DNA from: Eledone cirrhosa
Taxonomy: Eukaryota
Assembly: GCA_964016885.1 (NCBI GenBank)
Contig: OZ024740.1
Coordinates: 248,248,001 to 248,312,000 of the forward strand
DNA: 64,000 bases
Direction: 5' to 3'
The notes under the pieces are model-generated. The model ran no database searches, had not been told where the DNA came from, and was given only the letters and a program-made list of their open reading frames with translations. Shown here piece by piece: positions 14,980 through 55,516 of the stretch. How positions within the stretch are numbered: position 1 is the stretch's first letter; each line of letters opens with the position of its first letter. A program made the translations under genes and the position numbers.

Positions 14980-15468
14980 ATTTAATCCCCTAGCCTTTTC
15001 CGAAGCTAGGTATGTGACAGTCGTCATTATCTTAAAATTCATAGCGAAAGGCCTTAAAAATATTTAAAAATAAACATGCCGTATATTGTTAAATATACAA
15101 TAGGTACATTCATATGTATATCGCTATTTCAGAACACCAATGCAAATTTCTAATTGATGTTGGGCTGGCAACCGCTCTGTATGTTTTCAACAGCTCATAA
15201 ACATAATTCGATTTCTATAACAATCCGGCTTAGTTAGCTTCAGCAAAGCCGGAAGGATATGTAGCCTTGATAACCACTAAGAAGTGAGAAATGGTGGCAT
15301 CGTCGATTACTTCCCCCTGCCTTTGTTGAAGCTAGGTATGTGATGTCCGTCATTACTTTGAAATTTATAGTGAAAGGCCTTCACAATATTTAAAAATAAA
15401 CATACCGTATATTGTTAAATATACAATACGTACATTCATATGTATATCGCTATCTCGGAGCACCAATA
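14980..15468 (+). mobile_element. ~326-bp tandem non-coding element, 1.5 units (retrozyme-like family H4)
   Basis: GCTAGGTATG at 15005 and 15331. Ends ...GAGCACCAAT then (CA)n. Contains an HHR. Confidence 0.78.
15261..15310 (+). ncRNA. Type I hammerhead, U3-A8 variant (H4)
   Basis: GTAGCC-TTGATAA-c-CACT aaga AGTG-a-GAAA-TGGTGGCATCG-TC-GATTAC. Confidence 0.75.
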
Positions 15469-15739
15469 CACACACACGCACACGCGCGCACACACACACA
15501 CACACACACACACACACACACACACACACACACACACACACACACACACACACACACACACACACACACACACACACACACACACACACACACACACACA
15601 CACACACACACACACACACACACACACACACACCACACACACACGCACACACGCACTCACACTCACACGCACACACATACACACACACGCACGCACACAC
15701 ACACATTTCGGTTATCTAAATCAAATGAATTAGCATAGT

Positions 15740-18298
15740 GTGTTTATTTATTTATTTGTATTTATTTACGATTTTCTAAATGACTAAGAATTTAAAAGTT
15801 ATTACTGTATCCAATCATCATAGAAATATCTAGTTTTCAATTGCTCTATGGCCCGGGAAAGGCGGATTGTTCACTTATTTACTTATTTCACTTATTTCAC
15901 ATATTTACTTATATAATAAAATGTTCTGATACGTCAATAAAGTCTAAAAGTGTGTTTGTATCAAGTTTATCAATGCCCTCGCAATACTTTAGCAAAGTAT
16001 TAGAATTAAGTGCTACCTAATAGCTTTCTTTAACAAGGCTAACGCTATAGTTTTAATGATGGTGCTTACGTACGGGCCTAATGTGTGTGTGTATAAGAGT
16101 ACAAATTTACTCTATATACAAAGCGTGCCATTGCTGAAGTACAGGAAGGGCGGCATTTGTACTTGTGACACGCGCTAAAGCTGTGAATAATGGATCTCTG
16201 CATGTCTTGTAGCTATCTAATCGGCTGATCCTATTAGAGCTATATGTGTGTGTATTCTGGTGGAAATGTTCTATGTCTACCTAGGGATGCTTTAACAATG
16301 GCATTAGTGTGCTCTAGGGTGTCTCTATCTTAGCGTGTATGTGGAATGGATATTAAAAACCAAGATCTACCCCTCTAGATCGTGAGAGGGTTTAAATGTG
16401 AGATATGTTTTATAGTTCCTGTATTTACACGAGGTAATAAGTTCACCCTTTTTTATTTAATAATTGATCCTTGGAAAACAGCATCTGGATCGTTTCCTCT
16501 GAGCAAAAATTGTATGGACGACGTCCTCCTGAGTAAGATTTGGCCTTGTAAAGTAGGCTCCATTTTAGATGATAGGGGATATCGTTGTCGTGAAGGTCAA
16601 AAATATGACCAGAAAGTGCTGTCACGTTTCGCCGGGCCGAGTTTCGAAATGAATGTTGATGTTGATAGTACCGTGTCTTGAATTCACAGACGGTTAGTCC
16701 AATGTAGGCTTTGTCGAATGTTCCGTCTTCACATTGCACTGGTAGACCACATTTTACTCCCGGCATCTATTGTTGAGAGGGCACAGTGATCTATCCGAAC
16801 AGTTGCACCCCGTAGTCTGCTCGCCACTAATATCATTGTTATTTCTGTTAGAGAGGAGTTTGGCATTGTTAGAGGAAGCGATATTTTGTGCTGTAAGAAA
16901 GTTTAACAGTGTTTCTGTTGATGATATTGTGGTACCAATGTTAAGGTGGGAGTGTTTGTCTAAAAGTCTGAGGAAGATCTTCCTTGGTGTGAAGACCTCG
17001 GCATTGTGAGAAGGATTAAACGACGTTATGTGGCGTGAGCGGCGGCGTCGCCTGCTGGATCCGCTAGTTACGCCTGGATAATAGGTAAGTTCCTCCTTGA
17101 AGCCGCTTTTTTTGAGGGCCTGGTTGTAGTGTGGCACGCATTCATTGAAGATTTTCTTATTTGAAGACAAGCGGAGGGAGATGTTTTTTAACCAAATTAT
17201 TAGTAATATTCCTTGGATGGTTGGAATAGCGGTGGATATAATGTAAGTTCTCATTCGGTTTCCTGTTGGGGTAGTACAAATTATTCTCCAAATTTAGTGT
17301 TACTTCCAAAAAGTTGGCACAGGTAAGCGACGTTTGTAGGGTGATTCTGAAATCTAAATCACGGAAGAATTTGGATGCGGTGTGTACGGACACGGTCCGT
17401 AATATTGGGGTTGTATCCTGTGAGAGTGACGAGTATATCACCTTTGTACAAACCTCCTCAGAACACAGTAAACTTTTCAATGAGCTTTTGAAGTATTAAC
17501 AGGCCTATGCGGTCCGTTTCCTTGGCCGAGGCGGTAGAACCCATACTAACGTCAAACGGTGAGTCTGAGGCTCTTTTTATCCAGGTAGAATTATCGAAGA
17601 GCAAAACGGTCTTCCTAGCGTGGAAGATGATTTCAATTTCTTGGTCGCTAATAGGTGTAATTGTTTTGGTATGTTCTATAGCAGCCAATAGATGTGGTTG
17701 GGCAATCGCGGCGTGGTAATTCGAGATGTCGAACTGGATAAATGTGGTATTCTCTTTATCATCGATACTCTTAAACCAGGAGATGACTTCCTGAGTATTA
17801 ATCCATAGGCTAAGCCTCGCATGTTGCTTTAATTTGAGTATAATACGATCCAGGGTCCTTTTCCTTATCTTCCCCATGTCCGACTTCGTCGGGTTTATAA
17901 GCCTGATAGTTGGTTTCCGATCGAAGTCGGATTTCAGGTCCTTGAGGGTGAAATAGGGTGTGCGAGGGTCGATAGGTTCAGTTCGATCGGAGGTGCTGAG
18001 TTTGGAGGTGGTGTTGCATCTCTCTATATTTATTTCGTTGATCATCGAAGGGTTGAATTTTCTATATGTAGAGGTCAGGCTGTTCCTAATTAGTGAGTGA
18101 TAACTGCCCGGTTGACGAAATACAAGTTTCTAGTTTTATCTGAATTCACAAGGATGTCATTGGTGCTTTTGTACTCCAATATCTTATTAGGGAGTTGTTG
18201 GAATCGGTTTTTTCTAGGCTTGAATTTTACTCCCTTGACCAGGTTGAATAGATCGATCTCAAATGTGGTTATCAAGAGCACATATTCCTTCGCCTTTG
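15740..18298 (-). mobile_element. Hydra-like PLE, frameshifted RT plus C-terminal GIY-YIG
   Basis: LVNSDKTRNLY; PYFTLKD..RLINPTKSDMGKI; FIQFDISNYH; FDVSMGS; GCNCSDRSLCPLNNRC; YIGLTVCEFKTRYYQH (ORFs 17458-18045, 17157-17480, 16754-17254, 16443-16766). Confidence 0.9.
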
Positions 18299-18361
18299 TA
18301 TATATATATATATATATATATATATATATATATATATATATATATATATATATATATATAT

Positions 18362-19320
18362 AATGGAAAAATTTGAACAGGAACAAAACAGAGAGGCAGT
18401 ACAACGAATGTTTATTAATTTCACGCTCTGGAGAGTGGGGTGGTGGTGGGGAACTACGTTTCGGGCATAAGCCCTTCCTCGGGTGAGAAGTGGGTGGGAA
18501 CAGAGTTCAAAGGGTGTGTAGGGGAGTGGTGGAGAGACATATAGCGAAAGGAAACGGTGCGAATGAAATTAAAAATAAAAATAAAAATAAAGCATGATCA
18601 AAATAAAAGGAATGAAAAAAAATATAAAAGCATGATCAAAATAAACTGAAATTAAAAGGGGGTAAAACAGGTGGTGGAAGGGTTTGGGGTGTGTAGGGGT
18701 GGTGGCGGGTGGAGTGGGGAGAGGGAGACGGGGTGTCCGAGCGGGGAGGGCTGAAGGTGGTGTGTGTGTGTAGGTGTACGTGTGTGTGTGTGTATGTGAA
18801 AGCAAGGGTTGGGGGAAGAACGGGGTTGCATGTTCAGGAAGAGGTGTGTGTGTGTGTGGGGGGGGGGGGTCGGAGTGTCTGTGCGTGTGTGGATAGAGGG
18901 GTGGGGGGAGAGGAATCAGGCGGCTGAGGGTGTAAATATGTGGTGGAAAGCACGTGTGTGTGGAGTTTAAGCGTGTTGTGGGTGTAGGTGGCGTGTGGGA
19001 GAAAAAAATTATTTTGGGTGTGTGTGTGGGTGAGTTATATAGGTGATTCCGTAAGAGGATGGTTGAAATGTTGGTAAATTCCTATGATGTTAGTAGATTC
19101 CGCGGTGGTCAAGTTCCACATACGAGTATTCCATGAAGAGATGGTCGGAAGAGGAGAGATGTGGGGTGCGCGCGCAACAGGAAGTGGTCAAGGCGGTGGG
19201 AGTGCTGTGTGTCTGTTTGTGCTGGAAGGTGGTCAGAGGGCATAGCAGCAGTCGGGTGGAATGGTAAAGGGGCGAAGATGGGTAGGTGTGAAAGTTGGAG
19301 TGAGGAGGGTGTGTGTGTGC
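18362..19320 (-). mobile_element. 3' UTR/pLTR of Neptune-like PLE
   Basis: Homologous to 61850-62766. Ends at (TA)n. Confidence 0.85.
18452..18486 (-). ncRNA. Minimal hammerhead, C4 variant
   Basis: Minus strand AC-CCGAGGA-a-GGGC ttat GCCC-GAAA-CG-TA-GT. Palindrome ACGT; stem I short. Confidence 0.62.
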
Positions 19321-54331: not shown

Positions 54332-54484
54332 TTCATTATTTCTGAAGACGGCATACGTATGTGTTGGTATGTATATTAAATTTGATAGTTTGTATAATTT
54401 TGTATAATTTTGTACATAGATCTGTTGAATATGCATGCCAATTCTAACACATATATGTCCTAGAAACGATCGTTAAATAATGAA
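54332..54484 (+). ncRNA. Type I hammerhead with 114-nt stem II (H9)
   Basis: TTCATTATTT-CTGAAGA-[114-nt rod]-GAAA-CGATCG-TT-AAATAATGAA. 10-bp stem I, palindrome ACGATCGT. Confidence 0.85.
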
Positions 54485-54837
54485 CTTTTTTTGTTTAATA
54501 TAAGGAACTGTTTCATTGTTTTATTCATTATTTTTTTAATATTTTATCTTGACTCTGTATTCCGTATATCTTTCACCGAAAGTGATTTTGAATGCATCTC
54601 TTCTTTCCATGATATCCGGATTACATTGAGTTCTTCATACGGATTGGACACTACCGTAAACTCTTGGTAGATTTATCTACATATATATATATATATATTT
54701 AGAAACACACAGATACATGCGGACACACACATATATACATGAATGCATCCGCACCCAACTGTGAGTTAAGGGTGCCAACTTCACCGATTCTTTCTCACGT
54801 CGTGTAGACGCGTTCTTGAGACTAGTAAAATGAGGTA

Positions 54838-54925
54838 TCCTCTTGATAAGTCGGCAGACCTCGCAAGGACTCTATATCTTTGATATATTGTTTTTGTTTA
54901 TGCCACGAAACTACGTAGTCGAGGA
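54838..54925 (+). ncRNA. Type I hammerhead, U3-A8, long stem II (H10)
   Basis: TCCTC-TTGATAA-GTcGGCA...TGCCAC-GAAA-CTACGTAG-TC-GAGGA. Confidence 0.87.
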
Positions 54926-55428
54926 ATTTAGGGGCAGTTTAGGTATGATACATTTTATTACTAATTATATCTAAATGTTTCTTCTCTCTTCATAATGTAT
55001 TTTTAACTCTGATACTGGTTCAGTCTGGTTCAAACTGAATTGGTCTGTCCCAGTCATTCATTGAGCAACATCGGTGAAGTTGGCACCCTTAACTCACAGT
55101 TGGGTGCGGATGCATTCATGTATATATGTGTGTGTCCGCATGTATCTGTGTGTTTCTAAATATATTAATAACTCCCTCTGGTCGAGCAATCTTTGAAGTG
55201 TGGGGACAACTGGAAAGCTTCCATTACTCATACTTCTCGCCTTCTTCACTACCTCTTCTACGGCCTCGATATGAATACCCCCTCCGCCTCCGTGGTATTT
55301 TGTTCGTGGTTATAAGAGGCTTAGCTCTGTTTCTCGACCGTTATATCGCGTGACTATCTCCCCCTCCGCCTTTTGGGATTCTTTCTCACGTCGTGTAGAC
55401 GCGTTCTTGAGACTAGTAAAATGAGGTA

Positions 55429-55516
55429 TCCTCTTGATAAGTCGGCAGACCTCGCAAGGACTCTATATCTTTGATATATTGTTTTTGTTTATGCCACGAA
55501 ACTACGTAGTCGAGGA
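55429..55516 (+). ncRNA. Type I hammerhead, U3-A8, long stem II (H10)
   Basis: Identical to 54838-54925. Confidence 0.87.

What the first reader, a model, noticed from the sequence alone, without database searches (positions are those of the whole stretch)
15261..55516. Recurrent U3-A8 catalytic-core covariation, including within one family
Seen: TTGATAA or TTGAGAA replaces CTGANGA at 15267, 34710 (minus), 44684, 54843 and 55434, in three unrelated families. In family H4 one member has CTGAGGA (21346) and two have TTGATAA. Established: C3-G8 is a tertiary Watson-Crick pair and U3-A8 can substitute for it. Inference: a double compensatory change inside a family points to selection for catalysis, and such motifs escape searches that require CUGA.
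Basis: partly seen in the sequence, partly recalled or inferred. Interest (0 to 1): 0.75.

Follow-up and report, generated by a model that had tools for sequence, protein, structure and literature searches.

The report
Compensated hammerhead cores in Penelope repeats
Several families of jumping repeats in this animal genome carry a small RNA motif, predicted to cut itself, in which two paired core letters have changed together from C-G to U-A, a real and recurrent swap that is already described for such elements.

Summary
All five U3-A8 sites and the C3-G8 site are type I hammerhead folds with a self-complementary helix III, in three unrelated repeat families. One family is the 3' end of a likely Hydra-type Penelope-like element; two are non-coding tandem repeats. 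The requested test supports covariation: for one H4 pattern the genome holds 1217 U3-A8, 760 C3-G8, 22 U3-G8 and 31 C3-A8 copies of 2086. The mismatches are scattered single-copy decay, and no family has a mismatched majority. The state is inherited by subfamily, so the evidence is a handful of switches: two on the best H4 tree (one origin not formally rejected, p-AU 0.055-0.09) and about six U3-A8 lineages. Natural U3-A8 cores, including in Penelope-like hammerheads, are published (PMC3088659, PMC4209133), and this scan has found them before on other DNA, also in this genome. Cleavage is untested; one mutational scan rescued only G3-C8 (PMC9901934). What I did not find in print: the counts, the absence of G3-C8, and a tentative link between U3-A8 and a G-C pair directly after A9.

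The parts
15261..15310 (+). Type I hammerhead, U3-A8, subfamily H4-c; core 15267-15273, GAAA 15288-15291, predicted cut after 15304
   Evidence: subfamily pattern 52 of 55 U3-A8
14986..15467 (+). H4-c insertion: 3' part of a unit plus one full ~326-nt unit, ending at a (CA)n run
21338..21389 (+). Type I hammerhead, C3-G8, subfamily H4-b; core 21346-21352, predicted cut after 21381
   Evidence: 95 of 100 listed pattern matches C3-G8, none U3-A8
21068..21544 (+). H4-b insertion: inverted 3' piece (about 21068-21197) then one ~318-nt unit ending at (TA)n
34676..34720 (-). Type I hammerhead, U3-A8, subfamily H4-a; core 34716..34710, predicted cut after 34680
   Evidence: 95 of 100 listed pattern matches U3-A8
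34538..34977 (-). H4-a insertion: 3' part of a unit plus one full unit between (TA)n runs
44680..44720 (+). Type I hammerhead, U3-A8, in the 3' pLTR of a likely Hydra-type Penelope-like family; core 44684-44690, predicted cut after 44715
   Evidence: 95 of 100 listed pattern matches U3-A8
43810..44291 (-). Inverted second copy of the 44684 hammerhead (core starts 44291), split in helix II by a ~333-nt insert (about 43949-44281) with a 5-nt duplication
54837..54925 (+). Type I hammerhead, U3-A8, 57-nt branched helix II domain; core 54843-54849, predicted cut after 54920
   Evidence: 99 of 100 listed pattern matches U3-A8
55428..55516 (+). Identical second copy, 591 nt downstream; predicted cut after 55511
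54698..55581 (+). Insertion of the 591-nt family: inverted piece 54698-54786, then 1.35 units ending 69-70 nt past the cut site at (TA)n

Best explanation
These are minimal type I hammerhead motifs in the terminal repeats of Penelope-like retroelements and their non-coding tandem derivatives, in which the core pair has switched from C3-G8 to U3-A8 in several lineages, likely because replicating source elements must keep a ribozyme that is predicted to cut as a dimer. Shown: folds, families, paired 3/8 states by subfamily, single-site mismatches at 0.4-3% of copies. Inferred: the element RNA self-cleaves after N17, two motifs pairing through the palindromic helix III; selection acts only on source elements; a switch proceeds by two transitions through a short-lived U3.G8 (or C3.A8) intermediate, helped by the C-to-T and G-to-A bias seen in the copies; inserted copies then decay neutrally.
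For: Genome-wide H4 pattern: 1217 U3-A8, 760 C3-G8, 22 U3-G8, 31 C3-A8, 56 other of 2086; about 964 mismatched expected under independence, 53 seen. Double decay of C3-G8 copies would give about 0.5 U3-A8 copies. Evenly spaced 1.4 Mb with 3 and 8 free: 100 C-G, 16 U-A, 8 other of 124, shuffles 2.7. 24 of 24 cluster-state groups with two or more copies are C-G (19) or U-A (5); two mismatched singletons checked belong to C3-G8-majority families. H4 alignment of 24 chosen rows: 12 of 15 pairs change on both sides, covariation 0.451 against 0.266 shuffled and at most 0.150 slid. Best H4 tree needs two changes, also from flanks alone. Helix III forms intermolecular duplexes of -7 to -20 kcal/mol and no stable hairpin at the five distinct window sites. 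9 of 30 loci of the 44684 family have an endonuclease-like frame ending 350-410 nt upstream on the same strand; longer copies show RT plus GIY-YIG-like frames with an inverted pLTR. H4 forms 318-322-nt tandem units. Literature: PMC4209133, PMC3088659.
Against: No cleavage or RNA data. 5' ends of copies do not pile up at the predicted cut site in the eight families that could be read. A single origin of U3-A8 in H4 is not rejected (p-AU 0.055 and 0.091). Minimal PLE hammerheads cleave weakly in vitro and the U3-A8 form is not among the constructs described as assayed (PMC4209133 text and Fig. S6 legend). U-A did not rescue in one scan (PMC9901934). Minimum-energy folds give helix I and sometimes II, not the full three-way junction, and 15267, 44684 and 54843 are no more stable than shuffles. 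No coding partner was traced for H4 or the 591-nt family.
Confidence: 0.72

Rival explanations
1. The folded core is under selection, but for a non-catalytic role such as RNA dimerisation, binding of the element's protein or template positioning; U3-A8 keeps the shape and may not cleave usefully.
For: Low in vitro activity of minimal PLE hammerheads, whose authors do not exclude other functions (PMC4209133); no U-A rescue in PMC9901934; no pile-up of copy ends at the cut site; many families close helix II with a non G-C pair.
Against: The 3-8 pair belongs to the catalytically active conformation (PMC9901934, PMC3884650 passages); U4 G5 A6, G12 A13 A14 A15.1 and the A15.1-U16.1 pair are invariant in 24 of 24 H4 rows while the stems turn over (16 of these rows were picked by a pattern that fixes those letters); U3-A8 is reported active in vitro (PMC3088659, citing earlier work).
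Confidence: 0.2
2. Neutral founder effect: AT-biased mutation fixed both transitions in a few source elements without selection, and amplification made the pairing look like covariation.
For: Both changes are the commonest mutation type in the copies (C3-to-T 1.9%, G8-to-A 3.2%, reverse 0.4-0.6%); few independent events; one origin in H4 not rejected.
Against: Neutral change would give U3-G8 and C3-A8 families more often than U3-A8 ones; none was found among about 33 lineages grouped by eye, of which 6 are U3-A8. By hand, all six U3 coinciding with all six A8 has a chance near 1 in 10^6 if lineages are independent, which is only approximate.
Confidence: 0.05
3. Chance matches of AT-rich DNA to a loose descriptor.
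For: 111 TTGANAA heptamers in the window; the AT minisatellite at 62966-63722 gives ten or more spurious U3-A8 hits; no Rfam match.
Against: 124 against 2.7 hits in shuffles; reversed-pattern controls 0-1 for the family patterns; compensatory changes in the stems.
Confidence: 0.02

Closest known systems
U3-A8 minimal hammerheads of Cercyon Penelope-like elements, Schistosoma mansoni (Cervera and de la Pena 2014, PMC4209133; parts 1-2 of 4 of the text and part 1 of 3 of the supplement read)
   Same: Type I minimal motif in pLTRs, palindromic helix III, predicted dimers, U3-A8 variant found by homology inside a family that otherwise has C3-G8 (about 1,300 hits there).
   Different: Other host and PLE clade; longer helix III (6-11 nt between A15.1 and U16.1); most U3-A8 lineages here lack the extra nucleotide after A9 that the paper calls conserved; several lineages and more than 10,000 pattern matches here.
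Natural U3-A8 core variants (Perreault et al. 2011, PMC3088659; section 8 and passages read)
   Same: Same compensatory change, described as first seen in nature there and as already shown active in vitro.
   Different: Rare examples across many genomes there; here whole amplified subfamilies with a countable 2x2 table.
Non-LTR retrozymes of animals (Cervera and de la Pena 2020, PMC7229834, passages; Li et al. bioRxiv 10.64898/2026.07.22.740005, abstract and one passage)
   Same: Non-coding tandem units with one type I hammerhead each; proposed to derive from PLE pLTRs.
   Different: The 591-nt unit exceeds the 150-450-bp range quoted; H4 has a long extended helix I; circular RNA not tested here.
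Hydra clade of C-terminal-endonuclease PLEs (Craig et al. 2021, PMC8557442; section 11 and passages read)
   Same: Short element, C-terminal GIY-YIG-like domain, CxCX5C linker, CxxC and CxH motifs, (TA)n insertion, hammerhead in the pLTR, inverted 5'-truncated copy.
   Different: No U3-A8 core is mentioned in the passages read; RT phylogeny not tested here; Pfam gave no match to the two frames.

Membership tests
Type I hammerhead ribozyme | Core N3-U4-G5-A6-N7-N8-A9, G12-A13-A14, A15.1-U16.1, H17 in type I order | tested here: met
   All six named sites
Type I hammerhead ribozyme | Watson-Crick pair between positions 3 and 8 | tested here: met
   1977 paired against 53 U-G or C-A of 2086; as U-A or C-G
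Type I hammerhead ribozyme | Three helices supported by covariation | tested here: met
   H4: 12 of 15 pairs with changes on both sides; 44684 and 54843 families fold by descriptor only, covariation not counted
Type I hammerhead ribozyme | Match to an Rfam hammerhead model | tested here: not met
   No hammerhead family at E<=1, C3-G8 sites included; a limit of the models for minimal motifs is the likely cause
Type I hammerhead ribozyme | Self-cleavage after N17 | not testable with these tools
   No assay; copy-end proxy negative
Minimal hammerheads of metazoan Penelope-like elements | Short palindromic helix III, unstable as a monomer | tested here: met
Minimal hammerheads of metazoan Penelope-like elements | Located in the pLTR of an RT plus GIY-YIG element | tested here: met
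   44684 family only: 9 of 30 loci and 3 of 3 long copies; domains recognised by motif, not by Pfam
Minimal hammerheads of metazoan Penelope-like elements | Same, for H4 and the 591-nt family | tested here: inconclusive
   No fixed-distance coding frame in 90 + 30 loci or in 3 longer H4 stretches; inverted 5' pieces and microsatellite targets are PLE-like
Minimal hammerheads of metazoan Penelope-like elements | Extra nucleotide between A9 and a G10.1-C11.1 pair | tested here: not met
   H4-a/d, 44684 and 54843 have G-C directly after A9; H4-b and H4-c start with A-U or C.A
Non-LTR retrozymes | Non-coding tandem units of about 150-450 bp with one type I hammerhead | tested here: met
   H4 units 318-322 nt, sister family 310-311 nt; the 54843 unit is 591 nt, above the range
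Non-LTR retrozymes | Expressed as linear and circular monomer RNA | not testable with these tools
Hydra clade PLE (44684 family) | CxCX5C linker before a C-terminal GIY-YIG, with CxxC and CxH motifs | tested here: met
   Read by eye in L363, L364 against PMC8557442 section 11
Hydra clade PLE (44684 family) | RT groups with Hydra references; RWK and DKT motifs | not tested
   No reference set in hand

The most novel reading that the evidence does not exclude
This genome records a replicated natural experiment on the hammerhead core: the 3-8 pair has switched independently about six times, always by transitions to U3-A8 and never to G3-C8, the swap that a laboratory scan rescues, and U3-A8 survives mainly where a G-C pair follows A9 directly. 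That would make mutational access and epistasis with the helix II junction, not intrinsic activity, the rule for which core a ribozyme uses, with sister subfamilies as ready test pairs.
Probability: 0.3. Interest if true: 0.45.

Novelty: new member of a known kind. Interest (0 to 1): 0.25.

Why it matters
The variant is known, so the gain is modest. The subfamily-level table is strong comparative evidence that source elements keep an active-state hammerhead core, which bears on the open question whether weakly cleaving PLE hammerheads work in vivo. About 13% of intact motifs in the sample (16 of 124) would be missed by CUGANGA searches. Close sister subfamilies (H4-b C3-G8 and H4-d U3-A8) give natural pairs for testing context dependence of the core pair.

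Tried and rejected
Rfam scan: no hammerhead hit, only microsatellite noise. Reading 54843 as type II or III: rejected, it is type I with a 57-nt helix II domain. The 62966-63722 minisatellite as U3-A8 hammerheads: rejected as repeat-made descriptor hits and left out of family counts. Copy ends at the cut site as a record of cleavage: no pile-up in H4-a, b, c, d, the 310-nt sister, cluster 2, 44684 or 54843; cluster 11 was swamped by (TA)n hits; loci were chosen for whole motifs, so the test is weak. One origin of U3-A8 in H4: best trees need two changes but the AU test does not reject one; 20 of 36 assembled rows were used, those with a full 5' flank. Sister link between cluster 37 (U3-A8, 852 matches, 100 of 100 listed U3-A8) and clusters 18, 28, 42 (C3-G8): similar layout but no BLAST support, not claimed. 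C3-G8 sisters of the 44684 and 54843 families: none among 100 listed matches each. G3-C8 or A3-U8 subfamilies: 1 of 2086 in H4, not family-like; none in 1.4 Mb; a narrow generic pattern gave 3 against 44 for U3-A8. No RNA holder listed; contigs of three public runs cover the 54843 core with no other letter listed there, run type unknown. Przybilski and Hammann 2007, Lunse et al. 2017, Martick and Scott 2006, Nelson and Uhlenbeck 2008, Hammann 2012 and Seehafer 2011 were not held; they may already cover context dependence or within-family switching, and are known to me only by title, citation or recall.
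Full report
Observation. The named heptamers are present (the minus-strand core runs 34716 to 34710). TTGANAA occurs 111 times in the window, so only the fold counts. Each site continues into helix II, GAAA, a self-complementary helix III, UH and a helix I partner. 54843 and 55434 are identical copies 591 nt apart with a 57-nt helix II domain. 15267, 21346 and 34716 are homologous over about 320 nt (68-80%) and unrelated by BLAST to the other two families. Rfam finds no hammerhead in the window, C3-G8 sites included.

Setting. The window lies in a 3.0-Gb genome, animal by its repeat content (inference), rich in (TA)n and retroelement fragments. 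A descriptor with positions 3 and 8 free gave 124 hits at score 26 or more in 140 evenly spaced 10-kb stretches, against a mean of 2.7 in three shuffles: 100 C-G, 16 U-A, 3 U-G, 1 C-A, 4 other. Eight of the random-sample hits in the U-A class belong to the tandem 591-nt family, so 13% is rough.

What the families are. In 9 of 30 loci of the 44684 family an endonuclease-like frame ends 350-410 nt upstream on the same strand (41 of 420 random pieces have any such hit). Three longer copies show RT-like and GIY-YIG-like frames, a CxCX5C linker and an inverted truncated copy, matching the Hydra clade description (PMC8557442 section 11). Pfam did not match these frames, so this rests on motifs read by eye. 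H4 is a set of non-coding units of 318-322 nt, single or tandem, often with an inverted piece and ending in microsatellites; a C3-G8 sister forms 310-nt arrays with up to 15,947 pattern matches. The 54843 family is a young 591-nt tandem unit with 6,336 pattern matches and a fixed 3' end 69 nt past the cut site in 26 of 27 distinct alignments. No coding partner was traced for these two.

The requested table. One pattern that spans C3-G8 and U3-A8 subfamilies of H4 has 2086 matches (reversed control 1): 1217 U3-A8, 760 C3-G8, 22 U3-G8, 31 C3-A8, 56 other by subtraction. Independence predicts about 964 mismatched. By their helix II letters, sorted by eye, 15 of the 22 and 26 of the 31 sit in C3-G8 backgrounds, giving single-site decay of 1.9% and 3.2%, and 0.4-0.6% in reverse; double decay would make about 0.5 U3-A8 copies. 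Subfamily patterns agree: H4-a 95 of 100 listed U3-A8 (248 matches), H4-c 52 of 55, H4-b 95 of 100 listed C3-G8 (163 matches), 44684 95 of 100 listed (2,128 matches), 54843 99 of 100 listed, a further family 100 of 100 listed (852 matches). At family level, 24 of 24 cluster-state groups with two or more copies are C-G (19) or U-A (5); among all 46 groups with a paired helix III, 4 singletons are mismatched. I checked two: their ten relatives each are 8 of 10 and 4 of 10 C3-G8, with C3 and G8 the majority letters in both. The other two were not checked. The minisatellite cluster was dropped before counting.

How many events. Copies inherit the state. A tree of 20 of 36 assembled H4 rows with 3 and 8 masked needs two changes; from flanks alone starred branches force two and 0% of 200 bootstrap trees allow one; yet the AU test does not reject one origin (p 0.055 and 0.091). 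The tree is unrooted, so gain and reversion cannot be told apart. With the unrelated families I count about six U3-A8 lineages among about 33, grouped by eye. Stems covary as well: 12 of 15 pairs change on both sides in 24 chosen H4 rows, above shuffled and slid controls, though relatedness inflates such counts.

Mechanism. Shown: fold, families, paired states, decay rates. Inferred: element RNA self-cleaves after N17, two motifs pairing through helix III, which forms duplexes of -7 to -20 kcal/mol and no stable monomer hairpin at the window sites; selection acts on source elements; a switch passes through a transient U3.G8 or C3.A8 state. That G8 acts through its 2'-OH, so that the base can change, is recalled. 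Against: no end pile-up at the cut site, weak in vitro activity of such motifs (PMC4209133), no U-A rescue in a full double-mutant scan of another hammerhead (PMC9901934, passages), and unremarkable folding energies at three sites.

Two side results. No G3-C8 or A3-U8 family appeared (0 of 124; 1 atypical match of 2086), although G-C is the swap rescued in PMC9901934; transition access explains this simply. And a G-C pair directly after A9 occurs in 6 of 10 U3-A8 against 6 of 32 C3-G8 groups (p 0.02), or 5 of 6 against 7 of 27 lineages after grouping by eye (p 0.016; 5 of 7 if cluster 43 is counted apart). This was noticed after the fact, H4-c is an exception, and lineages are not fully independent, so it is a hypothesis.

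Known work. Perreault et al. 2011 report natural U3-A8 covariation and cite earlier in vitro activity (PMC3088659, section 8). Cervera and de la Pena 2014 found U3-A8 by homology within the Cercyon PLE family, about 1,300 hits, noting that their descriptor had missed it (PMC4209133). Searches found no paper with a genome-wide 3/8 table, a count of switches or the helix II link, but six key papers were not held and parts 2-3 of the 2014 supplement were not read. Earlier notes of this scan report the same variant elsewhere and in this genome.

Verdict. Real, well supported, ordinary in kind: new members of a known variant, with unusually clean counts. Interest 0.25.

Noticed in passing
window 826+, 7730-, 8271-, 9182+, 9726+, 20800+, 27275+, 39628+, 60473+: Nine further type I hammerheads with C3-G8 cores; four lie in a ~541-nt tandem plus inverted array (7585-9957) and have a 51-nt helix II domain.
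   Followed up: partly
window 62966-63722: 27/32-nt AT-rich minisatellite that yields many spurious U3-A8 descriptor hits on the minus strand.
   Followed up: yes
window 43949-44281, 12197-12565, 13930-14298: A family with TATAGCG...CGCTACA ends: one copy with a 5-nt duplication splits the inverted 44684 hammerhead; two 99.7% identical copies lie 1733 nt apart like the ends of a small LTR-type element.
   Followed up: partly
window about 21412-21422, 34642-34652 (minus), 15331-15340: H4 units carry a splice-donor-like AAGTAAGT or AGGTATGT 30-40 nt past the cut site; PLE pLTRs are known to hold introns.
   Followed up: no
L064, L065, L192, L188, L108 upstream of the core: An octamer-like ATGCAAAT (one variant) recurs upstream of the hammerhead in H4-c and three other families; the label is recalled.
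   Followed up: no
H4-a copies, e.g. L009, L013-L015: A sub-lineage of H4-a has an extra A between helix II and G12, present in many copies.
   Followed up: no
genome-wide, clusters: Many families begin helix II with U.U, A.A, C.A or A-U in place of G10.1-C11.1, and helix II domains reach 50-70 nt.
   Followed up: partly
window 21320-21405 and 34650-34748: H4 extends helix I into a long hairpin enclosing the motif (z -5.6 and -7.4).
   Followed up: partly
window 1187-2301 and 3296-4410: 1.1-kb 99% inverted repeat overlapping an endonuclease-like frame (2821-3357), the typical inverted PLE layout.
   Followed up: no
window 25310-25675: Frame resembling the C-terminal part of a Pif1/Helitron-type helicase by eye; no Pfam match at E 0.001.
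   Followed up: no
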